Below the pieces are notes generated by a model. It saw only the letters and a list, made by a program, of their open reading frames with translations. It had not been told where the DNA came from and searched no databases. Source: an uncultured Candidatus Rokubacteria bacterium (GTDB lineage Bacteria; Methylomirabilota; Methylomirabilia; Rokubacteriales; CSP1-6). From it: 64,000 nt of DNA. Made by a program: the position numbers and the translations under genes. Shown here one piece after another: positions 1 through 45,167 of the stretch. Location of the stretch: positions 67,048 through 131,047 of the forward strand of contig CAWJDX010000025.1 in assembly GCA_963841755.1 (NCBI GenBank), read 5' to 3'. How positions within the stretch are numbered: position 1 is the first letter of the stretch; each line of letters starts with the position of its first letter.

Positions 1-931
1 TGGCGGGCACGAAGGCCAGGCCTCGCGGCGCGTCGCCGTCGGTGAAGCGCGCCAGGCTGGTGCGCCCCCCGTCCGCGGTGAGGGCGAAGATCTCGGTGCC
101 CTGCCGGTCGGCCACGAAGAGCAGCCCGGCCGGGCCGGCCGCGAGGGCCTGCGCCATCGGGCCCTCGAGGACGAGGCGGGGCTCGCCGCGAGGGCTCACC
201 CGCCAGATCGCGCCGGGGCCTGCCTGCCACGGCGCCTCCGCGGCGCCGTCGCTGCCGACCCAGAGGTGATCCGATTCGTCCACCGCGAGCGCGCGGGGCC
301 GCGCCACCCGCACGTTGTCGAGCATCCGCCCGTCGCCGTCGAGGCGCAGCACGACGCCGCGGTCGCGGTCCGCGACGTAGATCTCGCCGGCCGCGCTCGC
401 CGCCGCGCCCTCCGGCTGGACCATCAGCGGCGCCCGCGCGGGCTCGGGCGGGGTGCCCCCGGCGAGGAAGCTGATCCGTCCGTCCGCTACGCGGTAGAGC
501 ACCCCCACCCGCCGATCGCGGTCGAAGGTGGTGACGAAGAGGTCGCGGCCCGCGCGGCCGGCGCTGACCTGGGCGTTGACCAGCGGCGGGCCGTGGAGGA
601 AGCGGGCCTCGGTCGCGGGCGTCAGGCGCGCCCCGCCCGGCGGGATGCGATAGAGCGAGGTGAGGTAGTCGAACTCGCCGCCGCTGTAGCGCCGGCCGGT
701 GCGCGCGAGGTAGAGGGCGCCGGTCGGGTCCACCGCGAGGGTGGAGGTCGACGGGATGCCGCGGCCGCGCGGCCCGCTGTCGCCGCCGAAGCCCTCGCCG
801 GTCACGTAGACGCGCGCGGTGAAGCCGGGCGGCAGCAGGATGTCGGCGGCGGCCGCGGCGGGGGAGAGCACTCCAGACAGGAGCGCCAGCCCCAGCCCGA
901 TGAGCTTCCGCGCCGTCCGCGTCGTGATCAT
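1..931 (-). CDS. secreted beta-propeller repeat protein (NHL/SGL-like); start inside window, 3' end runs off the left edge
   Basis: Own translation of the minus strand from ATG 931..929: MITTRTARKLIGLGLALLSGVLSPAAAAAD... (signal-peptide-like). It is stop-free with GC-rich third positions down to base 2. Recurrent strand motifs such as GEIYVADRDRGVVLRLDGDG and LLFVADRQGTEIFALTADG. It is absent from the ORF track, presumably because no stop lies inside the window. Confidence 0.6.
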   Translation of the reverse strand, partial: MITTRTARKLIGLGLALLSGVLSPAAAAADILLPPGFTARVYVTGEGFGGDSGPRGRGIPSTSTLAVDPTGALYLARTGRRYSGGEFDYLTSLYRIPPGGARLTPATEARFLHGPPLVNAQVSAGRAGRDLFVTTFDRDRRVGVLYRVADGRISFLAGGTPPEPARAPLMVQPEGAAASAAGEIYVADRDRGVVLRLDGDGRMLDNVRVARPRALAVDESDHLWVGSDGAAEAPWQAGPGAIWRVSPRGEPRLVLEGPMAQALAAGPAGLLFVADRQGTEIFALTADGGRTSLARFTDGDAPRGLAFVPA

Positions 932-983
932 CCGCCGAGATCATAGCCTCGGCGATCGGATGCGGCAACCGCGGGGGTCCGGA

Positions 984-1925
984 CTAGGGTGCGCGGTCCA
1001 CGATGAGGGCGGGCAGCGCCTCGAGCGGGAAGCCGGCGTCGATCCACGCCGTGAGCCCGCCGTGCAGCGGGTAGACCCAGCGGACCCCGCTCCGCTTGAG
1101 CTGGAGCGCCACCCGGGCGCTCGTGGCCTCGTTGGGTCAGGAGCAGTAGAGGACGACCTTCCGATCGAGGGGAATCTCGGCGCGGCGGCTCTCGATGACC
1201 TCGGCGGGGATCCAGAGGGCGCCGGGGATCTTGTGGGGGGCCGCGCCCACGTCGAGGGTCGAGCGGGTGTCGATCACGATCAGGTCGGGGTCGGCCGCGT
1301 CGAGGCGGCGCTTGAGCTCCGCCGGCTCGATCCGGGCCACCCGCAGGCTGCGCAGGAAGCGCCGGCGGCGGACGAACTTGACCACGACGTAGCCGGCGAG
1401 GGCCACCGCGCCGGCCGCGAGCCCCCAGTGGCCCACGCGCGCCCCCAGATCGAGCAGCGGGGCCAGCGCGTCGCTCGAGAGGTAGCCCAGGGTGATCCAC
1501 GTCCCGGCCCAGAGGAGGGCGCCCATGATGTCGAGCACGAGGAACGACGCCCGGCTGAGGCCGACGATGCCGGCCAGCGGCGGCGCGATGGTGCTGAGCC
1601 CGGGCAGGAACTTGGCGACGAGCAGGGCCCAGCGGCCGCGGGTCATGAACAGGTTCTCGGTGCGGCGGACGCACGAGTCCGGCTCGAGAGAGAGCCGACA
1701 GATGACGTCGAGGACCCGCTTGCCCCGTGCGCGCCCGAGCTCGTACCAGACGACGTCGGGGGGCAGGGAGGCGGCCAGCGCGGTGGCGAGGCCCGCGAGC
1801 GCGCTCATGCGGCCGGTGCCCGCGAAGGCCCCGACCCCCAGCAGCAGGGGGACCGCGGGGATCGGCAGGCCGATCTGCTCGGCGAGCACGAAGGCGAAGA
1901 GCATGAGGTAGCTGTCCATGGCCAC
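984..1925 (-). CDS. DedA-family membrane domain fused to a C-terminal rhodanese domain; candidate selenoprotein (in-frame UGA at 1139..1137)
   Basis: The ORF track entry 1137..1925 ends ...DRKVVLYCS. The TGA is followed in the same frame by PNEATSARVALQLKRSGVRWVYPLHGGLTAWIDAGFPLEALPALIVDRAP and then TAG (986..984). That stretch supplies the missing C-terminal half of the rhodanese fold. The N-terminal 190 aa are hydrophobic and DedA-like. Confidence 0.6.
1104..1122 (-). promoter_or_regulatory. SECIS-like stem-loop downstream of the rhodanese UGA
   Basis: Minus-strand RNA GAGCGCC-CGGGU-GGCGCUC forms a perfect 7-bp stem with a 5-nt loop containing GU. The stem starts 14 nt and the loop 22 nt after the UGA. 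Confidence 0.45.
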
Positions 1926-1933
1926 ATCCTAGC

Positions 1934-1961
1934 TTGACAGGGTCCCGGATCGCGCTATACG
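1934..1961 (+). promoter_or_regulatory. sigma70-like promoter candidate for the OsmC gene
   Basis: TTGACA (1934..1939), 16-nt spacer, TATACG (1956..1961). GGGAGGA lies 7 nt before the ATG at 1981. Confidence 0.35.
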
Positions 1962-1980
1962 GGAGCGGGAGGATCGCGAC

Positions 1981-2472
<492 letters not shown>

Positions 2473-2574
2473 ACGCTGTGTTCTCTCTTCAGCGCGGTGT
2501 GCTCGCAACGATGCGGTGCCCAGTTCACTCGCAACCCGGGCTCGCTCAGCGGGCGCCGGGCGGAGGAGGGTGTC

Positions 2575-4267
2575 ATGGAAGAAGAGCGCACCACGTTCGA
2601 GACCCTCGAAGCGGCCTTCGTCGAGGGACGGCTCACCCGGCGTGAGCTGCTTCGCCGCAGCGCCCTGATCGGGGCCAGCGCCGCCGCCGCGCACCTCCTC
2701 GGCTCGCTCGGGCTCGCCCGTCCGGCGCACGCGCAGGGGACCCCCAAGAAGGGCGGCACCCTCGTCATCGCCAAGGAGAGCGAGCTCGACATCCTCGACC
2801 CGCACAGCGCGGGCGGCTGGGTGACCTGGCGGGTCAGCAAGCAGATGCACGAGGGCCTGATCGACGAGGACCTCACCCAGGCCAACGTGCCCTACCCGAA
2901 GCTCGTCCCCAAGCTCGCGACCTCGTGGGACGTCTCCAAGGACTCGCTGACCTACACCTTCAAGCTCCGCAAGGGGGTCAAGTTCCACGACGGCACGAAC
3001 TTCGACGCGGCGGCGGTGAAGTACAACATCGACCGCTGCGCGGCCAAGGACTCGCCCCAGTTCTACGCGCGGGCCAACGCCTACACCACGTGGATCTGGC
3101 AGTTCCTCAAGGAGGTGAAGACCCCCGACGAGGGCACCGTGCAGATCGTCCTGCGCGAGCCCTACGGCGACTTCCTCCGCCAGCTCGTCCAGGGCGGCGG
3201 CGGCGCCGCGGTGTTCATCAGCCCCACCGCGCTCAAGAAGTACGGCAACGAGGGCATCGCCGAGCACCCGACCGGGACCGGGCCGTTCCGCTTCGTGGAG
3301 CGCGTGCGCGGCGAGAAGGTGGTCACCGAGCGCAACCCCAACTACTGGGGGACGCAGCCGTTCCTCGACCGGATCATCGACCGGCCGATGCCGGAGCCGG
3401 CCGCGCGCATGACCGCGCTGCAGGCCGGCGAGGTCGACATGATCTACGTGCCGCATCCCGACGGCATCGCGGAGCTCAAGACCAAGGGCTTCAAGCTCGA
3501 GCAGGGGCCGGCCCCCCACGTCTGGTACTTCGCGTTCAACCTCAAGGACAAGAACTACCAGGACGTGCGCGTGCGGCGGGCCATCAACATGGCCATCGAC
3601 CGCGAGGGCATGGCCAAGCAGCTCCTGAAGGGGACCGCGGTCGCCGCGCGCGGGCTGCAGGCGCCGTGCTGCCCGTCCTACGATCCGAACTTCAAGGACT
3701 ATCCCTACGACCCCGCGCAGGCCAAGAAGCTCCTCGCGGAGGCCGGCTTCCCGAACGGCTTCGAGACGGTGTGGCAGACGTCGGTCGACGGCAGCGGCCA
3801 GCTCATCCCGGTGCCGATGGCGGAGTGGATCCAGCGCGACCTCGCCAAGATCGGCATCCGGATGAAGCTGCGCACCTACGAGTGGATCACCTACATCGGC
3901 TACTGGATCAAGGGCATGGACGACGCCTCCAACAAGGTCGGCGGCCAGCAGATGAGCTGGGGGATGACGAGCGACTACTGGCTCGACATCGTCACCAACT
4001 CCTCGCACATCGCCCCCGCGGGCGGGGCGGGCCAGAACGGCGGCTACTACTCGGGCGCCGACGCGATGCTGAACGCGGCGCGCGGCGAGATGGACGAGAC
4101 CAAGCGCGCCGGCTCTCTACCGGAAGATCAACCAGAAGATCAAGGAAGACGCCCCCGCGGTGCCCATCATCAACGACCTCGCGCCGCTGATGCTGAGCCC
4201 CAAGGTGAGGGGCTTCGTCCACGCGCCGGAGGAGTGGTACGACATGACCACGGTCTGGCTCGCGTGA
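2575..4267 (+). CDS. ABC transporter substrate-binding protein, family 5 (peptide/nickel type), Tat signal; frame broken near 4110
   Basis: ATG 2575 is preceded by GGAGGAGGG. N-terminus MEEERTTFETLEAAFVEGRLTRRELLRRSALIGASAAAAHLLG. After ...DETKRA the listed frame turns into Pro/Arg/Gly-rich sequence unlike the family C-terminus. The +1 frame reads LYRKINQKIKEDAPAVPIINDLAPLMLSPKVRGFVHAPEEWYDMTTVWLA* (stop 4265..4267). Length is 1 mod 3. Confidence 0.85.
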
Positions 4268-39656: not shown

Positions 39657-40562
39657 TCAAGTCGCCCCCCGGTCGGCGCTCGCGCGGTCGGTGGCGCCGA
39701 TCGCGACGCCGCCCAGCACCAGGACGATCGCGACCACCAGCTGCACGGTCAGCGGCTCGCCGAGCCAGAGCGTCGCGGTGATCGCGCTCACCACCGGCGT
39801 GGCCAGCAGCCCGAGCGAGGTCGTGACCGCGGGCAGATGCCGGCTCGCGGTCGCCACCGCCCAGTAGGCGATCGCGGTGCCCACGATGCCCAGGTAGAGC
39901 AGCAGCACGGTGAACTCGGAAGTCCACTCGAGATGGGTCGGCGGGCCGGCCGCGAGCGCGATCGGCGCCAGCAGCACGGTCGCGAGCAGGGTCTCCCACG
40001 GGATCAGCGCGAACGGGGTGGAGCGCCAGCGGTGCGCGCGGATGTGCAGGATGCTGGCGGCCCAGAGCAGCGCGCCGGCCAGGATGGCCAGGTTGCCGAG
40101 GACCACCGCGCGGTCGCTCCAGTCGAAGGTGAGCGGGTTGAAGAGGGTCACGAGGCCGGCGAGGCCGACGAGCACCCCGACCACCCGGCGCGCGGTGAGC
40201 GGCTCGCGCAGGAAGAGGGCCGCGCCGGGGGTGACCCAGAGTGGCGTGGTGTAGGCCAGCACCACGGTGCGTCCGGTGGGCACGAGGCCCAGGCCCCAGC
40301 TCGCGAGGAGGTTGAAGCCCACCATGTGGAGCAGGGTGATGCTGATCAGCACCGGCAGATCCCCCGCCGGGGGCAGCGCCACCCGGCCGCGCCAGGCGGT
40401 GAGGGCGAAGAGGGCCACGGTGGCGATGGCCGAGCGCAGGGTCACCGCCCAGAGCGGCGAGAGGCTCAGGAGAATGACCTTGTTCACCGGCCAGGTGAGT
40501 CCCCAGGCGGAGACCACGATGAGCAGGGCCGCGATGCCCTGGCCACGAGCGGTCGAAGGCAC
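39657..40562 (-). CDS. DMT-superfamily transporter (EamA-like)
   Basis: Intact 301-aa ORF with about 10 hydrophobic segments in two internally similar halves. GTG start. Confidence 0.8.
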   Translation of the reverse strand: MPSTARGQGIAALLIVVSAWGLTWPVNKVILLSLSPLWAVTLRSAIATVALFALTAWRGRVALPPAGDLPVLISITLLHMVGFNLLASWGLGLVPTGRTVVLAYTTPLWVTPGAALFLREPLTARRVVGVLVGLAGLVTLFNPLTFDWSDRAVVLGNLAILAGALLWAASILHIRAHRWRSTPFALIPWETLLATVLLAPIALAAGPPTHLEWTSEFTVLLLYLGIVGTAIAYWAVATASRHLPAVTTSLGLLATPVVSAITATLWLGEPLTVQLVVAIVLVLGGVAIGATDRASADRGAT

Positions 40563-40678
40563 GATCAGCCGCGAGGCGGCGTGGCGGCGAGGGCGTGGGG
40601 CATCGGGCGCGATACTGCCGCGCGCCCGACCGTCGCGTCAAGGCGGCCCCGCGCCGCGCGGCGATGGTAAGATCGCGC

Positions 40679-40710
40679 CCAGAGAGGACACGCCCCAGAG
40701 AGGACACGCC
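40679..40710 (+). repeat. perfect 16-nt tandem duplication containing the ribosome-binding region of the next gene
   Basis: CCAGAGAGGACACGCC occurs twice back to back (40679..40694 and 40695..40710). The second copy ends at the base before ATG 40711. Confidence 0.9.
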
Positions 40711-41811
40711 ATGATCACGCTGCTCACGGATGCGGGGGAATTCGCGGTGGACGGGGCGGCTGCCTCGACGACGACGCTCTGGTGTCCCGCGCGCGACGCG
40801 GAGGCCGCCACGGGCTGGGTCGCCAAGCCGGAGGGGCTCTGCCGGGGGCCGGTCTGCGTGCCGCTGCCCGCGGGGCGCGAGCGCGAGTTCGTCGACGGTG
40901 GGCGCATCGACCTGGCCGCGCTCTGGCGCCACCTCGGTCAGCCCGCGATCCACGGCGACCGGGGCGACGCGTGGGTGCTCTCGCAGAGCGCGCGCGACCG
41001 CGCGGCGACGCTGGGCGCGCTGGAGGCGCCGGACTTCGCGCTGCCCGACGCGGCCGGCCGGCTGCACCGGCTCTCCGAGCATCGCGGGAAGAAGGTCCTG
41101 CTCGTCACCTGGGCGTCCTGGTGAGGGTGCCGTCGCGACCTGCCCGTGTGGCAGGCGCTCTACGAGGAGCTGGGCGATCGCGGCTTCGTGGTGATCGCGG
41201 TGGCGATGGACAGCCGCGAGGGCGATCCGCTGCCGTGGATCGAGGCGGCCCGGCCCACCTATCCGACCCTGATCGATCGCGACCATCGGCTCGCCGAGCT
41301 CTACGGCATCGTCAACGTGCCGCAGGCGGTGTGGATCGACGAGGCCGGCCGCATCGTGCGTCCCGCGGAGCCGGCCGGCGCCTATGAAGGCTTCCGCAAG
41401 ATGAACCGGGCGACGCGGGAGATGCCGGAGGACGTGGCGCGTCTCACCGCGCAGGCGAAGGCGACGTATCTCGACGCGATCCGCGACTGGGTGCGCCTCG
41501 GGCCGAAGAGCTCCCACGCCCTCACCGCGGCCCAGGCGCGCGAGCACCTGCCCACGCCGCGCGAGGACACCGCCCGGGCCCAGGCGATGTTCCGGCTCGG
41601 GCAGCTCCTGATCCGGCGGGGAGAGCGCGAGGAAGGCGAGCGGTGGATCCACGAGGCGAGCCGCCTGCACCCCGACTCCTGGTGCATCTGGCGCCAGGGG
41701 GCGGGGGTCAACGAGACGGGGCTGGCCGCGCTGCCCGAGTTCTGGCAGCGGGTCGACGCGCTCGGGGAGGCGCGCTACTACGCCCGGGTCGACATGCCCG
41801 GCATGCCCTAG
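40711..41811 (+). CDS. ResA/TlpA-like thioredoxin-fold protein with W-A-x-x-U-G-C motif; candidate selenoprotein (in-frame UGA 41122..41124)
   Basis: ORFs 40267..41124 and 41146..41811 share one frame. Read-through gives ...EHRGKKVLLVTWASW-U-GCRRDLPVWQALYEELGDRGFVVIAVAMDS...NVPQAVWIDEAGRIV.... The TGA therefore sits where ResA/TlpA proteins carry the first redox Cys. Confidence 0.65.
41135..41158 (+). promoter_or_regulatory. SECIS-like stem-loop downstream of the ResA-like UGA
   Basis: GCG-A-CCUGCC [CGUGU] GGCAGG-CGC: 9 bp with one bulged A and a 5-nt loop containing GU. The stem starts 10 nt and the loop 21 nt after the UGA. Confidence 0.45.
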
Positions 41812-41817
41812 CCGGCG

Positions 41818-44046
41818 ATGGCCGGCCCGGAGCCCTCGCACACGTTTCCGGCCAGCCGAGACTTCAGCTCGCTCTCGGTTCGCGACCTGATCGAGGCGCG
41901 CGACCACTACCACGTCCACCTCGCGCACCTCCAGAACGTCAAGGCCACCGCGATCGGCCGCTACCTCATCCGCGCGGACGACTGGTACGCGGAGCATCCG
42001 CCGTCGACCCGGCCGCCGAAGGGGTACCGCCGGCCGACCGGGCCGCGCACCATGTTCAACTCGGTGGTGCGCGAATGGTCCTGGCCCTGCGTGCTGGTCT
42101 TCGTGGACCGGTGGGCCGATCGACGGCGCCTCGACAACGTGGACGATCCCGACCAGATCGTGCCGCGCCTGCTCTACCTGCCGGACGGGCGCGTGGTCCC
42201 CACCTGCGTGGTCCAGGTCAGCATGCACACGGCGCCCGCGGGCCTGCCTCACGACTACCGGTTCCCGAAGGCCTTCGTCGGGGGCGGCTACCCGGTGCTC
42301 GCGGCCGTGCAGGGGCGCGAGCACGTGGGCTCGCTCGGTTGCCTCGTCACCGACGGGAGCGTGACCTACGCGCTCACGAGCCGTCACGTGGTCGGCGACG
42401 CGGGCCGCGAGATGTACTCGATCGTGGGCGGCCGCCGGGAGCGCATCGGGGTGTCCGACGCGCGGCAGGTCGGCAAGAAGCCGTTCGAGGCGGTCTATCC
42501 CGGGTGGCCGGGAAGCCACGTGTACAGCAATCTGGACGCGGGGCTCATCCGGGTCGACGACGTCTCGCGCTGGACCACCCAGGTGCTGGGGGTGGGCGAG
42601 ATCGACGAGATGATCGACCTCAACACCGACACCATCACGCTCGACCTGATCGACTGCCCGGTGCGCGCCTTCGGGGCGGCCTCGGGCCAGCTGTTCGGCC
42701 GGGTCGCCGGCTTCTTCTACCGCTACAAGTCGGTGGGCGGCTTCGACTACGCGGCCGACCTGCTCATCCGGCCCCGGCCCGATCCGGCGGATCCGGCCCG
42801 GACGCCGAGCACGCTGCCCGGCGATTCGGGCACGCTCTGGTGCCTCGAGGAGCCGTGGCCGGCGGGCGACGAGCGCTCGCACCGGAGCCCGACGCGCCTC
42901 CGCCCGATCGCGCTGCAGTGGGGCGGGCAGGTGCTCGTGGAGGACGGGATCGCCTCGTCCACCGCCCGGAGCTTCGCGCTCGCCACCTCGCTCAGCACCG
43001 TCTGCCGCGAGCTCGACCTCGACCTGGTGCGGGACTGGAACACCGGGCTGCCGGAGTACTGGGGAGCCGTCGGCCACTACACGATCGCCGCCATCGCGTG
43101 CTCGCGGGTCAAGAGCACCAAGCTCCGGAAGCTGCTCGCGGCCAACCTCGAGCGCATCTCGTTCCCGCGCGCGGTCATCGAGAAGGGTGCGAACGCCTTC
43201 GACGGGCTCTCCAAGAAGCCGTTCATCCCGCTCGCCGACGTTCCGGACTACGCCTGGAAGGGCGGCGGGCGCAGCGGCGAGCAGCCGAACCACTTCGCGG
43301 ACATGGACGCGAAGGTGCCGTCGGGGGAGTGGAAGGGCAAGACGCTGCTCGACCTGTGCCACGACGAGGCCAACGTCGACGTGGGGGTGTGGACGCAGTA
43401 CTACAAGCTGGTGAAGGACCGCAACAAGGGGACCCTGCCGTTCCGGGTCTGGCAGATCTTCTCGGCGATGAAGGGCTTCGCCCGCGCCAAGGACGTGCCG
43501 CAGTTCGTGGCCGCCGCGGGGGTGCTCGCCCACTACGTGGGCGACGCGTGCCAGCCGCTGCACATCTCCTACATGTACAACGGCAAGCCGGTGGCGGGCG
43601 GCAAGAAGGGCGAGGGCGTCCACCACGAGTACGAGGCCGCCATGTTCAACGCGCACGTGGCCGAGCTGTGGGACGGGATCACGGCCAAGATCCCCGGCGG
43701 GGCCTTCGCCTCGATCACCACCGGCCGGGCGGCCGCGGTCGCCACCGTGCGCTTGATGGACACCACCTTCACCCTCATCCCGCCGGAGGACATCGTGAAC
43801 GCGTACGCGCAGGGGCAGGACCTGTGGGCCCGGTTCGGGGATCGGACCAAGCAGACGATGGCGAACGGGGTGCGCGCGCTCGCCGAGCTGTGGGAGAACG
43901 CGTGGAAGGCCGGCAACGGCAACGCGATCGCCACCACCGCGCTGGGGGCGGTCGACCCGGGGGTGCTGGCCGGCATCTACACCCGCGACGACTTCCTGCC
44001 CTCGCACCGGATCAAGGACATCGCCTCCGTGCTGGACGCGACCTGA
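41818..44046 (+). CDS. fusion protein: trypsin-like serine protease domain (N) + zinc-dependent phospholipase C / S1-P1 nuclease superfamily domain (C)
   Basis: Intact 742-aa ORF with no signal peptide. Protease triad motifs: TSRH190VVGD, NLD240AGLIRV, PGDS337GTLW (spacing 50/97 aa, close to the chymotrypsin-fold spacing). C-terminal motifs: YW415GAVGH420, PLAD474VPD, NH492FAD, LAH572YVGD576ACQPLH582, H602HEYE606. Confidence 0.7.
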   Translation: MAGPEPSHTFPASRDFSSLSVRDLIEARDHYHVHLAHLQNVKATAIGRYLIRADDWYAEHPPSTRPPKGYRRPTGPRTMFNSVVREWSWPCVLVFVDRWADRRRLDNVDDPDQIVPRLLYLPDGRVVPTCVVQVSMHTAPAGLPHDYRFPKAFVGGGYPVLAAVQGREHVGSLGCLVTDGSVTYALTSRHVVGDAGREMYSIVGGRRERIGVSDARQVGKKPFEAVYPGWPGSHVYSNLDAGLIRVDDVSRWTTQVLGVGEIDEMIDLNTDTITLDLIDCPVRAFGAASGQLFGRVAGFFYRYKSVGGFDYAADLLIRPRPDPADPARTPSTLPGDSGTLWCLEEPWPAGDERSHRSPTRLRPIALQWGGQVLVEDGIASSTARSFALATSLSTVCRELDLDLVRDWNTGLPEYWGAVGHYTIAAIACSRVKSTKLRKLLAANLERISFPRAVIEKGANAFDGLSKKPFIPLADVPDYAWKGGGRSGEQPNHFADMDAKVPSGEWKGKTLLDLCHDEANVDVGVWTQYYKLVKDRNKGTLPFRVWQIFSAMKGFARAKDVPQFVAAAGVLAHYVGDACQPLHISYMYNGKPVAGGKKGEGVHHEYEAAMFNAHVAELWDGITAKIPGGAFASITTGRAAAVATVRLMDTTFTLIPPEDIVNAYAQGQDLWARFGDRTKQTMANGVRALAELWENAWKAGNGNAIATTALGAVDPGVLAGIYTRDDFLPSHRIKDIASVLDAT

Positions 44047-44051
44047 GCCCG

Positions 44052-45167
44052 ATGCCCCCGCTGCCGCGCTTCGGGCTGAACCGCTTCGACTCCCGCTCGG
44101 TCGACGCCTTCGCGGCGGACGTGCGCCGCGCCGAGCAGCTCGGCTGGGACGCCGCGCTCCAGCCGGACTCGCAGCTCCGCCGGCGCGACACCTACGTGCT
44201 GCTCGCCGCGGCGGCGCGGGTCACCGAGCGGATCGCGCTCGGGCCGCTCCTGGCCAACCCGGTGAACCGCCATCCCACCGTCACCGCGTCGTCGATCGCC
44301 ACCGTGGACGAGCTGGCGCCGGGGCGGGTGCTGCTCGGCTGGGGCGTGGGCGACACCGCGGTGCGCCTGGCCGGCCTCAAGCCGGCGCGGGTCGCCGAGC
44401 TGGAGGCGAGCACGCGGCTCATGCGGGCGCTGCTCGACGGGCAGGCGGTGGAGGTGGGCGCGGCGCGGCCGGCGCGCCTGCCGCATCACCGGCCGGTGCC
44501 GATCTGGATCGCCGCCGGCGGCCCGCGCACCCTGCGCATGGCGGGCGGCGTCGCGGACGGGGTGTTCATCCGGGTGGGCACCCATCCCGCCAACATCGCC
44601 ACCGCGGTGAGCGCGATCCGCGCCGGAGCCGTCGCGGCCGGCCGCGACCCGGCCTCGGTGCGGCTCGGCGCCGTCTTCCACACCGTGCTGGTGGACGACG
44701 CGGAGCGCGCGCTCGTCATGGCGCGCTCGATGGCGGCGGGCTACTACGAGTACTCTCCCGCGCTCTTCGACCCGCCCGGGCTGGCCTGGACCGGCCCGGA
44801 TCCGGAGAGCCTCAAGCACGCCCGGGGAGTCTGGCCCGATTTTCACCACGCGACGGATCTGGAGGCGAGCGGGCGGGCGGTGGACTTCCTCCCGGAGAGC
44901 GCGGCCGATGCCTTCAGCCTCCGCGGGGCGCCCGCCGAGGTGGCGCGGCAGCTGGTGACCGCTCTCCGCGACGCGCCCGCGCCCTTCGACTACGTGGTGC
45001 TCCACCCGATCCCCGACCCGAAGTGGCCGGGCGACCCCGAGCGCGACTACACCGCCCGCGTCGCCCGCGAGGTCCTCCCGCTCGTCCGCCGCGCCGCTGG
45101 GCAGCTAAGCGAGCTGTTTGTGGACGAACTCGATGATGCGCGCGATCGTCCGCTCGACGGCGGGTGA
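44052..45167 (+). CDS. LLM-class (luciferase-like) flavin/F420-dependent oxidoreductase; 3' end probably at 45108
   Basis: ATG 44052. ...LGPLLANPVNRHPTVTASSIATVDELAPGRVLLGWGVGD.... The last 20 codons are antisense to the convergent esterase gene and use atypical codons (CTA, TTT, GAA, GATx3, CGT). In the +1 frame a TAA lies at 45106..45108. Confidence 0.8.
   Translation: MPPLPRFGLNRFDSRSVDAFAADVRRAEQLGWDAALQPDSQLRRRDTYVLLAAAARVTERIALGPLLANPVNRHPTVTASSIATVDELAPGRVLLGWGVGDTAVRLAGLKPARVAELEASTRLMRALLDGQAVEVGAARPARLPHHRPVPIWIAAGGPRTLRMAGGVADGVFIRVGTHPANIATAVSAIRAGAVAAGRDPASVRLGAVFHTVLVDDAERALVMARSMAAGYYEYSPALFDPPGLAWTGPDPESLKHARGVWPDFHHATDLEASGRAVDFLPESAADAFSLRGAPAEVARQLVTALRDAPAPFDYVVLHPIPDPKWPGDPERDYTARVAREVLPLVRRAAGQLSELFVDELDDARDRPLDGG

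What the first reader, a model, noticed from the sequence alone, without database searches (positions are those of the whole stretch)
40711..41811. In-frame UGA at the redox position of a ResA/TlpA-like thioredoxin-fold gene, with a SECIS-like hairpin: probable selenoprotein split into two ORFs
- **Same frame:** the two track ORFs (40267..41124 and 41146..41811) are in the same frame and separated only by TGA 41122..41124.
- **Read-through:** it gives one 366-aa protein, ...GKKVLLVTWASW-U-GCRRDLPVWQALYEELGDRGFVVIAV....
- **Position:** this is where ResA/TlpA-type proteins carry W-C-x-x-C. Here the motif is W-A-S-W-U-G-C, with only one residue between Sec and Cys.
- **Hairpin:** ten nt after the UGA starts GCG-A-CCUGCC[CGUGU]GGCAGG-CGC (41135..41158). 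It has a bulged base and a GU-containing apical loop 21 nt from the UGA, which is the geometry expected of a bacterial SECIS.
- **Not an artefact:** the frame is identical on both sides, so the insertion-type errors seen elsewhere in this window cannot explain it.
- **Prior knowledge:** I recall a curated family description of the form 'ResA-like WAxxUGC motif' but cannot verify it here.
Basis: partly seen in the sequence, partly recalled or inferred. Interest (0 to 1): 0.75.

Follow-up and report, generated by a model that had tools for sequence, protein, structure and literature searches.

The report
Selenocysteine gene of the UGC thioredoxin-fold family
The apparent stop codon inside this thioredoxin-like gene is almost certainly a selenocysteine codon with its own RNA signal, but the gene belongs to a selenoprotein family that is already catalogued, so it is a correct and fairly ordinary finding.

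Summary
ATG 40711 to TAG 41811 is one reading frame broken only by TGA 41122-41124, inside the motif W-A-S-W-*-G-C.

- **Orthologues:** in 80 related loci from other genomes this codon is TGA in 70, TGC or TGT in 10, and never TAA or TAG.
- **Cys homologues:** all 13 full-length Cys homologues read are single fused proteins with W(A/S)SWCGC.
- **SECIS hairpin:** a hairpin with a 6-bp stem and 5-nt loop (41139-41155) starts 14 nt after the TGA. All 71 TGA forms keep it. Two pairs covary (C-G to U-A) through mostly synonymous changes. Most Cys forms have lost it. It fits the published bacterial SECIS model.
- **Genetic code:** TGA is also the usual stop codon in this window, so the code is not reassigned.
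- **Product:** a 366-aa, apparently cytoplasmic protein with three parts: an N-terminal CxxxxC domain, a ResA/TlpA-type thioredoxin fold carrying U138-G-C140, and a TPR-like tail.

The family is already known. It is NCBIfam NF041054, "ResA-like WAxxUGC motif-containing protein" (295.2 bits, cut-off 300). [quoted passage not shown]

The Sec machinery of this genome could not be checked. Its phylum, Methylomirabilota, is reported to be rich in selenoproteins. The biochemical function has not been tested.

The parts
40711..41811 (+). Complete selenoprotein coding sequence: 366 aa with Sec at residue 138, ATG start, TAG stop.
   Evidence: The translation has a single internal TGA. NF041054 matches residues 26-359 over model positions 9-351 of 354, E = 7e-88. 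Orthologues in 80 loci are collinear across this span.
40678..40709 (+). Shine-Dalgarno region: a 16-nt unit CCCAGAGAGGACACGC present twice in tandem. The second GAGG lies about 7 nt before the ATG.
   Evidence: Read directly from the sequence. The duplication is shared with L002 and absent from L004 and L007.
40840..40857 (+). Codons for Cys44 to Cys49 (C-R-G-P-V-C), a Cys pair in the N-terminal domain that is invariant in the aligned homologues.
   Evidence: C44 and C49 are invariant columns in the alignment of the window protein with 27 full-length homologues.
41023..41358 (+). Thioredoxin-fold (ResA/TlpA-type) domain, residues 105-216. The TGA splits it.
   Evidence: Pfam AhpC-TSA (E = 4.6e-20) and Redoxin match residues 105-216. 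PDB profile hits: 3kcm, ResA 1st9, TlpA 1jfu. Foldseek on the AF2 model of the 59%-identical Cys homologue P0003 gives ResA TMt 0.79.
41122..41124 (+). In-frame UGA read as selenocysteine (U138), at the position of the first Cys of the thioredoxin-fold CxxC motif.
   Evidence: The column is TGA in 70 loci plus the window, TGC in 8 and TGT in 2, never TAA or TAG. It is Cys in all full-length homologues. HMMER aligns it to WATWCPPC of 3kcm.
41128..41130 (+). Cys140 (TGC), the proposed resolving partner of Sec138 in the U-G-C motif.
   Evidence: C140 is an invariant column. The motif is W-A-S-W-U-G-C in 70 of 71 TGA forms; L039 has U-R-C.
41139..41155 (+). Conserved SECIS core: 6-bp stem CCUGCC/GGCAGG and 5-nt loop CGUGU. 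The G at loop position 2 (41146) is invariant.
   Evidence: This is the RNAalifold consensus of the 71 TGA forms. Pairs 41139-41155 and 41140-41154 covary CG to UA in 23 and 15 sequences. Folding energy is -9.3 kcal/mol. Kept in 71 of 71 TGA forms and 3 of 10 Cys forms.
41135..41158 (+). Extended hairpin with a bulged A (41138) and a lower GCG/CGC stem. It is present in the Rokubacteria-type clade only.
   Evidence: Folding energy is -14.7 kcal/mol. The lower pairs form in only 28-46 of 70 distinct sequences.
41563..41694 (+). TPR-like helical repeat in the C-terminal domain, residues 285-328.
   Evidence: The profile matches consensus TPR proteins over profile positions 285-328. The AF2 model is helical from 238 to 326.
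44052..45167 (+). Gene for a 371-aa protein. By its sequence I take it to be a luciferase-like monooxygenase; no family search was run on it. In 18 relatives it directly follows the selenoprotein gene, so it is the likely ancestral operon partner. Here it is displaced by an insertion.
   Evidence: tblastn finds it starting 15-27 nt after the stop of the selenoprotein gene in 18 loci. Collinearity is shown by blastn.

Best explanation
The region 40711-41811 is one gene for a 366-aa selenoprotein of the UGC-motif, ResA/TlpA-like thioredoxin-fold family.

**Translation (inferred).** The ribosome reaches UGA 41122-41124. The hairpin 41139-41155 is then still unmelted just downstream. With its G-containing apical loop 20 nt beyond the UGA, it recruits SelB-GTP-Sec-tRNA(Sec), and selenocysteine is inserted instead of termination. 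Translation continues to TAG 41811.

**Product (domains shown; mechanism inferred).**
- An N-terminal domain of about 100 aa with an invariant CxxxxC pair.
- A thioredoxin fold in which Sec138 takes the place of the nucleophilic first Cys, just before helix alpha-1. Cys140 lies two residues later.
- A helical, TPR-like tail.

Sec138 would attack a substrate disulfide or another oxidised sulfur or selenium species. Cys140 would resolve the intermediate into an intramolecular selenenylsulfide, which a cellular reductant then recycles.

The window protein has no signal peptide, so it should work in the cytoplasm. The substrate is unknown.
For: **Shown**
- There is a single in-frame TGA, and both halves are coding.
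- The column is TGA in 70 of 80 orthologous loci from Methylomirabilota/Rokubacteria, Blastocatellia, Chloroflexota, Myxococcota, SAR324 and Alpha-, Gamma- and 'Delta'-proteobacteria. It is TGC or TGT in the other 10 and never TAA or TAG.
- All 13 full-length Cys homologues read are fused proteins with W(A/S)SWCGC. C138, G139 and C140 are invariant columns among all 27 aligned.
- The RNAalifold consensus is a 6-bp helix with a 5-nt loop. Two pairs covary, and all six pairs form in at least 65 of the 70 distinct sequences.
- The covariation runs through mostly synonymous sites. Leu CUG/UUG pairs with Gln CAG/CAA. Asp GAC/GAU pairs with the first base of the next codon. The third base of the Leu codon is G in all 71 TGA forms.
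- The stem and the loop G are lost in 7 of 10 Cys forms, although the peptide DLPVWQ is often kept.
- The hairpin meets all four constraints of the published bSECIS model: a 3-9 nt loop with a 4-16 bp stem, a G in the first two loop positions, 16-37 nt spacing, and MFE of -7.5 kcal/mol or lower (PMC13188914).
- TGA ends 15 of 27 long, high-GC3 ORFs in the window, so the code is standard.
- Best family match: NF041054, 'ResA-like WAxxUGC motif-containing protein', E = 7e-88.
- Fold: PDB profile and Foldseek matches to ResA, TlpA and DsbE.

**From the literature**
- A 'Prx-like (UGC-containing)' selenoprotein family is listed in PMC2398784 and PMC9312934.
- PMC13582414 reports Sec-type hydrogenases in Methylomirabilota.
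Against: - No selA, selB, selD or tRNA-Sec was found in the 64-kb window or in the 80 loci. The rest of this genome could not be read.
- The hairpin of this one sequence is not more stable than shuffled sequence of the same composition.
- No Rfam model matches it.
- The NF041054 score, 295.2 bits, is just below the curated cut-off of 300.
- The stem lies in a conserved peptide (D-L-P-V/G-W-Q), so part of its conservation comes from coding constraint.
- The sequences are phylogenetically related, so the Fisher test and the shuffle controls overstate significance.
- The catalytic mechanism and the cytoplasmic location are inferred, not measured.
- The structure model is of a 59%-identical Cys homologue, not of the window protein.
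Confidence: 0.9

Rival explanations
1. The TGA is a nonsense mutation or a sequencing or assembly error, and the locus is a broken copy of a Cys-type TlpA-like gene.
For: The window and some related long-read MAGs carry indel errors. The copies in L024, L050 and L056 are frameshifted. Cys forms with TGC or TGT, one substitution away from TGA, exist.
Against: The same TGA is found in 70 independent assemblies from several phyla, made with different sequencing technologies. The column is never TAA or TAG. Both halves stay under purifying selection in one frame. A structured element downstream tracks TGA against Cys.
Confidence: 0.02
2. These are two real genes: a 137-aa N-terminal protein that ends at TGA, and a separate 221-aa protein that starts at GTG 41146.
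For: Gene callers produce exactly these pieces. Dozens of 221-aa entries are in the protein database.
Against: The split falls between strand beta-1 and helix alpha-1 of a single thioredoxin fold and would remove the active site. All Cys homologues are fused. The proposed GTG start is the Val codon inside the hairpin, and it is GGN (Gly) in the Blastocatellia orthologues and in five of the Rokubacteria-type loci. No ribosome-binding site is needed to explain the data.
Confidence: 0.02
3. The UGA is read through, but not as Sec. Candidates are Cys inserted by the Sec pathway, or Trp or another residue inserted by near-cognate suppression. The hairpin would act only as a read-through stimulator.
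For: The Sec machinery was not found in the sequence available. The homologous column is Cys, so a Cys product would be functional.
Against: The hairpin has the geometry and loop G of SelB-binding bSECIS elements (PMC13188914). The family is listed as a selenoprotein family in PMC2398784 and PMC13188914. The phylum is reported to be rich in selenoproteins (PMC13188914, PMC13582414). A lineage without Sec would be expected to fix TGC or TGT, as the Cys forms did.
Confidence: 0.05

Closest known systems
NCBIfam NF041054, 'WAxxUGC_long': ResA-like WAxxUGC motif-containing protein (equivalog model)
   Same: The match covers nearly the whole length (model positions 9-351 of 354, E = 7e-88). The W-A-x-x-U-G-C motif is the same, and so is the three-part architecture. 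Orthologues 50-61% identical to the window protein pass the cut-off: L023 304.8, L028 308.7, L044 355.4 bits. The more distant L077 scores 325.7.
   Different: The window protein (295.2 bits) and its closest relative L002 (297.0) fall just below the curated cut-off of 300. NCBI's pipeline would therefore probably not name them from this model.
[quoted passage not shown]
   Same: The Pfam domain is the same (PF00578, AhpC-TSA). So are the U-G-C Sec motif, the single Sec, and the many Cys homologues (the papers' tables).
   Different: The papers give only a motif, a domain and one accession. I could not confirm that their representative has the long, three-domain architecture. None reports a tested function.
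ResA (Bacillus subtilis) and TlpA (Bradyrhizobium), extracytoplasmic thiol-disulfide oxidoreductases
   Same: The thioredoxin fold is shared (Foldseek TMt 0.73-0.79 to ResA on the homologue model; profile E of 1e-15 to 1e-17). The W before the first active-site residue and the Pro that aligns with the 'vP' of 3kcm (the thioredoxin-fold cis-Pro position, from my knowledge of the fold) are also shared. Blastocatellia orthologues have a signal-peptide-like N-terminus and lie downstream of cytochrome oxidase genes, as would suit a TlpA-like role.
   Different: The active site is U-x-C, with one spacer residue and Sec, not C-x-x-C. The window protein has no membrane anchor or signal peptide. It carries an extra N-terminal CxxxxC domain and a C-terminal TPR-like domain that ResA and TlpA lack.
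Escherichia coli fdhF-type bacterial SECIS and the bSECISearch consensus model
   Same: The stem-loop lies inside the coding region just after the UGA. It has a small apical loop with G then U at positions 2-3, 20-nt spacing and adequate stability (PMC13188914).
   Different: There is no sequence similarity to fdhF and no Rfam match. The conserved core is a plain 6-bp stem. A bulged base occurs only in the clade-specific lower part.

Membership tests
NCBIfam NF041054 (ResA-like WAxxUGC motif-containing protein) | HMM score at or above the curated equivalog cut-off of 300 bits | tested here: not met
   295.2 bits, E = 7.4e-88, which is 4.8 bits short. The closest relative, L002, scores 297.0. 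More distant orthologues score 301-355. The shortfall is an operational threshold for this clade, not a lack of homology.
NCBIfam NF041054 (ResA-like WAxxUGC motif-containing protein) | W-A-x-x-U-G-C motif with Sec encoded by TGA | tested here: met
   W134-A-S-W-U138-G-C140, with TGA at 41122-41124.
NCBIfam NF041054 (ResA-like WAxxUGC motif-containing protein) | Long architecture matched end to end | tested here: met
   One stretch: protein residues 26-359 against model positions 9-351 of 354.
Bacterial selenoprotein gene (criteria used in the field, PMC13188914) | In-frame TGA aligned with Cys in homologues (Sec/Cys pair) | tested here: met
   All 13 full-length homologues read carry Cys at the column, and the column is invariant among all 27 aligned. 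Ten genomic loci carry TGC or TGT.
Bacterial selenoprotein gene (criteria used in the field, PMC13188914) | TGA-containing orthologues in other organisms | tested here: met
   70 of 80 loci from several phyla carry TGA. None carries TAA or TAG.
Bacterial selenoprotein gene (criteria used in the field, PMC13188914) | bSECIS downstream: 3-9 nt loop, 4-16 bp stem, G in the first two loop positions, 16-37 nt from the UGA, MFE of -7.5 kcal/mol or lower | tested here: met
   The loop is 5 nt (CGUGU) and the stem 6 bp, or 9 bp with the bulge. The G is at loop position 2, and 20 nt separate the UGA from the loop. MFE is -9.3 or -14.7 kcal/mol. The helix is conserved and covaries.
Bacterial selenoprotein gene (criteria used in the field, PMC13188914) | selA, selB, selD and tRNA-Sec present in the same genome | not testable with these tools
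   None is in the 64-kb window or in the 80 loci. The window's contig is not in the look-up collection. There is only phylum-level support from the literature (PMC13188914, PMC13582414).
Bacterial selenoprotein gene (criteria used in the field, PMC13188914) | Selenium actually incorporated at the UGA position | not testable with these tools
   This needs 75Se labelling or mass spectrometry.
ResA/TlpA-type thiol-disulfide oxidoreductases | Thioredoxin fold of the TlpA/ResA/DsbE type | tested here: met
   PDB profile: 3kcm 9e-21, ResA 1st9 3e-17, TlpA 1jfu 4e-15. Foldseek on the homologue model: ResA TMt 0.79, rmsd 1.5 over 118 columns.
ResA/TlpA-type thiol-disulfide oxidoreductases | C-x-x-C active site | tested here: not met
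   The motif is U-G-C, with one spacer residue. HMMER needs a one-residue gap to align it with WCPPC.
ResA/TlpA-type thiol-disulfide oxidoreductases | N-terminal membrane anchor or signal peptide (extracytoplasmic location) | tested here: not met
   The window N-terminus MITLLTDAGEFAVDGAAAS has no hydrophobic segment. Only 148 nt separate the ATG from the divergent EamA gene. Blastocatellia orthologues do have a signal-peptide-like extension.
Peroxiredoxins (Pfam AhpC-TSA, the best Pfam hit) | P-x-x-x-T-x-x-C/U peroxidatic motif | tested here: not met
   The sequence before Sec is K-V-L-L-V-T-W-A-S-W-U. Thr is at -5, not -3, and there is no Pro at -7. TlpA/ResA proteins routinely match this Pfam model as well.

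The most novel reading that the evidence does not exclude
The UGC-motif family may not be a generic disulfide reductase. It could be a dedicated redox relay: the invariant N-terminal CxxxxC pair would pass electrons to, or a chalcogen or metal ligand to, the U-x-C centre, and the TPR tail would hold a specific partner.

In Blastocatellia, the version with a signal-peptide-like N-terminus lies downstream of coxA/coxC/coxD-like genes. It would then be a Sec-dependent counterpart of TlpA in cytochrome oxidase (CuA) maturation. That would be the first selenoprotein implicated in assembly of a respiratory complex.

The cytoplasmic Rokubacteria-type form, ancestrally followed directly by a gene I read as a luciferase-like monooxygenase (no family search was run on it), would serve a different partner.
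Probability: 0.15. Interest if true: 0.5.

Novelty: new member of a known kind. Interest (0 to 1): 0.25.

Why it matters
**Annotation.** Standard gene callers split this gene into a 137-aa orphan and a 221-aa "AhpC/TSA" or "TPR" fragment. Dozens of such fragments are in public protein sets. The curated NCBIfam model misses the Rokubacteria-type clade by a few bits, so these copies are likely to stay mis-annotated.

**Biology.** The gene adds a soil Methylomirabilota/Rokubacteria member to a selenoprotein family with an unusual U-x-C centre whose function nobody has tested. The comparative data here define the minimal conserved SECIS, a 6-bp stem and a 5-nt loop with covarying pairs. They also give two context clues that make experiments easier to design:
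- linkage to cytochrome oxidase genes in Blastocatellia
- linkage in Rokubacteria-type genomes to a gene I read as a luciferase-like monooxygenase

None of this changes current understanding of selenoprotein biology.

Tried and rejected
- **Rfam.** The search at gathering thresholds over the whole window and a permissive search over 41100-41200 found no SECIS or other credible RNA family. The only hits were chance matches with E of 4-10.
- **tRNA-Sec.** ARAGORN found no tRNA in the window or in 60 loci.
- **Sec machinery genes.** tblastn with E. coli SelA, SelB and SelD against the window and all 80 loci found nothing. This says nothing about the rest of the genome.
- **Source contig.** The exact-sequence look-up of the 221-aa C-terminal ORF found no record.
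- **Structure of the window protein.** I modelled the 59%-identical Cys homologue P0003 instead.
- **Other selenoprotein genes in the window.** I looked among same-frame adjacent ORFs. The junctions examined look like ordinary gene boundaries, for example TGA 4306 followed by a new start MLKFLVYR.
- **Family-wide conserved neighbour.** Clustering the flanking ORFs of all loci found only clade-specific neighbours.
- **Single-sequence thermodynamics.** The z-score of +0.46 cannot be used as evidence for the hairpin. The comparative data were used instead.
- **Peroxiredoxin reading of the Pfam AhpC-TSA hit.** Rejected because the PxxxTxxC motif is absent.
- **Literature search for 'WAxxUGC'.** It returned nothing. 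The family appears under other names.
Full report
**1. The observation**

The window is 72% G+C. The ORF listing gives 40267..41124 (+) and 41146..41811 (+) in the same frame.
- Translating 40711-41811 gives MITLL...KKVLLVTWASW*GCRRDLPVWQALYEEL...PGMP*. It has one internal stop, at codon 138.
- The DNA reads TGG TGA GGG TGC at 41119-41130.
- The ATG at 40711 follows a GAGAGGA Shine-Dalgarno-like element. Only 148 nt separate it from a divergent EamA transporter gene (39657-40562, minus strand).
- The hairpin GCG-A-CCUGCC[CGUGU]GGCAGG-CGC is at 41135-41158 as described.

**2. Is it more than chance?**

For this sequence alone the hairpin proves nothing. The 57-nt region folds no better than dinucleotide shuffles (z = +0.46), as expected in G+C-rich DNA. 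The comparative evidence decides the matter.

A scan of one genome per species found 260 stretches that encode relatives, and 80 loci were kept.
- The codon at the Sec column is TGA in 70 loci plus the window, TGC in 8 and TGT in 2. It is never TAA or TAG.
- The TGA forms come from Methylomirabilota/Rokubacteria, Blastocatellia and other Acidobacteriota, Chloroflexota, SAR324, Myxococcota, and Alpha-, Gamma- and 'Delta'-proteobacterial MAGs. They come from many projects and sequencing technologies.
- This excludes a sequencing error or a private nonsense mutation.
- The codons on both sides (GCN TCN TGG | TGA | GGN TGC CGN) vary mainly at third positions, in the same frame. Both halves are therefore translated as one frame.

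**3. Sec/Cys pairing and position in the fold**

The protein database holds two kinds of relatives.
- One kind is 221-aa entries covering only the C-terminal 60% (78-98% identical). These are the gene-caller artefact that starts at the GTG inside the hairpin.
- The other kind is full-length proteins of 361-384 aa (51-59% identical).

All 13 full-length sequences I read carry W(A/S)SWCGC. In the alignment of the window protein with 27 of them, W134, S136, W137, C138, G139, C140 and R141 are invariant. So are C44 and C49 in the N-terminal region.

Pfam places AhpC-TSA and Redoxin on residues 105-216. A profile search of solved structures hits TlpA/ResA/DsbE-type proteins: 3kcm 9e-21, ResA 1st9 3e-17, TlpA 1jfu 4e-15. 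HMMER aligns WasWCG-C with WATWCPPC. The Sec column is therefore the first, nucleophilic Cys of the CxxC motif, and the second Cys sits one residue closer than usual.

An AlphaFold2 model of the Cys homologue P0003 (59% identical) is confident, with pLDDT 91.8 and pTM 0.89. The C-G-C triplet lies between strand 126-132 and helix 137-155. Foldseek matches ResA with TMt 0.79 and rmsd 1.5 Å over 118 columns. It covers only the middle third of the protein (TMq about 0.3).

Residues 285-328 match consensus TPR repeats. The N-terminal 100 residues match nothing outside the family.

**4. The RNA element**

I aligned 54 nt, starting at the TGA, from the 71 TGA forms.
- RNAalifold on its own predicts one helix, columns 18-23 with 29-34. 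That is window 41139-41144 with 41150-41155, plus a 5-nt loop.
- Counting pairs, all six pairs form in at least 65 of the 70 distinct sequences. Pair 18-34 is C-G in 40 and U-A in 23. Pair 19-33 is C-G in 52, U-A in 15 and U-G in 3.
- These changes are mostly synonymous. Leu CUG or UUG pairs with Gln CAG or CAA. Asp GAC or GAU pairs with the first base of the following codon. The third base of the Leu codon is G in all 71 TGA forms.
- Sliding the 3' partner by 1-3 columns drops pairing from 84% to 33-60%.
- The lower GCG/CGC stem with the bulged A forms in only 28-46 of 70 distinct sequences, so it is specific to the Rokubacteria-type clade.
- All 71 TGA forms keep at least 5 of 6 pairs and a G at loop position 2. 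Only 3 of 10 Cys forms do, although they often keep the peptide DLPVWQ. Fisher p = 3e-8, not corrected for shared ancestry.

The published bacterial SECIS model asks for four things (PMC13188914, legend of its Fig. 2):
- a 3-9 nt loop on a 4-16 bp stem
- a G in the first two loop positions, usually followed by G or U
- 16-37 nt between the UGA and the loop
- MFE of -7.5 kcal/mol or lower

The window element has a CGUGU loop, 6 bp (9 bp with the bulge), 20 nt of spacing, and -9.3 or -14.7 kcal/mol. It meets all four. Rfam has no matching model. PMC13188914 notes that many predicted bacterial SECIS elements bear no resemblance to one another, so this absence carries little weight.

**5. Genetic code and Sec machinery**

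TGA ends 15 of 27 long, high-GC3 ORFs in the window, so TGA is not reassigned genome-wide.

No tRNA gene and no selA, selB or selD homologue lies in the window or in the 80 loci. The contig could not be traced.

The indirect evidence points the same way.
- The window is 91.6% identical in DNA and syntenic over 4.1 kb with a Methylomirabilota MAG (L002).
- A Methylomirabilota MAG has been reported with 63 predicted selenoprotein genes (PMC13188914, citing Deng et al. 2026).
- Sec-type [NiFeSe] hydrogenases are reported from the phylum (PMC13582414).

**6. Comparison with what is known**

NCBIfam NF041054, 'WAxxUGC_long: ResA-like WAxxUGC motif-containing protein', is by far the best family match: E = 7e-88 over model positions 9-351 of 354. 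The score of 295.2 bits is 4.8 bits under the curated cut-off of 300.
- The closest relative, L002, scores 297.0.
- Orthologues from other clades pass: SAR324 304.8, Hyphomicrobiaceae 308.7, Blastocatellia 325.7, a 'delta proteobacterium' 355.4, and a Myxococcus Cys form 301.0.
- The Rokubacteria-type clade is therefore a peripheral member of the same family, not a different one.

The term 'WAxxUGC' appears in no paper of the library. The family is listed under other names:
- 'Prx-like (UGC-containing)', pfam00578, motif UGC, with 46 selenoproteins and 855 Cys homologues in the GOS data, more abundant in non-marine samples (PMC2398784)
- 'UGC-containing Prx-like protein' (PMC9312934)

None of these papers reports an experimental function.

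The protein is not a peroxiredoxin, because the PxxxTxxC motif is absent. It departs from ResA and TlpA in four ways: the U-x-C centre, the two extra domains, and, for the window protein, no export signal.

**7. Context**

In 18 Rokubacteria-type relatives a gene for a 371-aa protein starts 15-27 nt after the stop of the selenoprotein gene. By its sequence I take it to be a luciferase-like monooxygenase, but no family search was run on it. In the window that gene is at 44052-45167, and one 742-aa gene (41818-44046) is inserted cleanly between the two.

Upstream lie EamA, DinB_2 and CoA-transferase III genes, shared with 11-12 close relatives. No neighbour is conserved across clades.

In 11 Blastocatellia loci the orthologue sits 0.15-1.5 kb downstream, on the same strand, of COX1/COX3/COX4_pro genes. 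Where the start could be read, for example in L077, it has a signal-peptide-like N-terminus. This hints at a TlpA-like role in oxidase maturation in that clade only.

**8. Verdict**

This is a real selenoprotein gene with a conserved, covarying SECIS, and gene callers split it. It is a new, probably unannotated member of an already catalogued family, so the novelty is low. What remains unknown is the biochemical role of the U-x-C centre and of the two accessory domains.

Noticed in passing
window 41818-44046 (+); insertion boundaries about 41836 and 44057: One 742-aa gene is inserted cleanly between the selenoprotein gene and the gene that directly follows it in relatives (which I read as a luciferase-like monooxygenase). 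The six closest relatives checked by blastn (L002, L004, L005, L007, L008, L013) are collinear on both sides and lack it, and no locus holds a homologue. It matches the PADLOC model PDLC03017 'trypsin-like' (E = 2.7e-37) and, weakly, Pfam S1-P1_nuclease and Nal1_C. It may be a recently acquired defence-type gene.
   Followed up: partly
window 40678-40709: The 16-nt unit CCCAGAGAGGACACGC, which holds the Shine-Dalgarno-like GAGAGGA, occurs twice in tandem just before the ATG. L002 shares the duplication, L005 has a variant, and L004 and L007 lack it. The effect on translation initiation is unknown.
   Followed up: partly
L063, L065, L066, L068, L069, L071, L073, L076, L077, L079, L080 (Blastocatellia), about 1-4100 in each locus: The orthologue lies on the same strand 0.15-1.5 kb downstream of cytochrome c oxidase subunit genes (COX1, COX3, COX4_pro). 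It has a signal-peptide-like N-terminal extension, for example L077 MIKLSMWAMIVCLLAATKLMAADQ. The window copy has neither feature.
   Followed up: partly
L005, L008, L014, L015, L016, L019: These contigs are labelled Verrucomicrobiia, Nitrosotalea (an archaeon), Deferrimicrobiaceae, Limnocylindria, Acidoferrum and Dormiibacterota. They nevertheless carry orthologues 77-85% identical to the window protein, and all have the same downstream neighbour gene as Methylomirabilota/Rokubacteria contigs. They are probably mis-binned contigs in the soil MAG catalogue.
   Followed up: no
L024 (3001-3849), L050 (3001-4917), L056 (2934-3575): In three long-read Rokubacteria MAGs the orthologous gene is frameshifted. 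The reading frames end early or run on (282, 638 and 213 codons instead of about 366), and the match lengths are not multiples of three. These look like indel errors of the assemblies. The TGA column itself is intact in all three.
   Followed up: no
window 40610-40674: Three short blocks in the intergenic region between the divergent EamA gene and the selenoprotein gene are largely conserved among the syntenic Rokubacteria-type relatives: CGATACTG (40610-40617), GTCAAGGCG (40637-40645) and GGTAAGATC (40666-40674). L001 and L003, which have a different context, lack them. They may be divergent promoter or operator elements.
   Followed up: no
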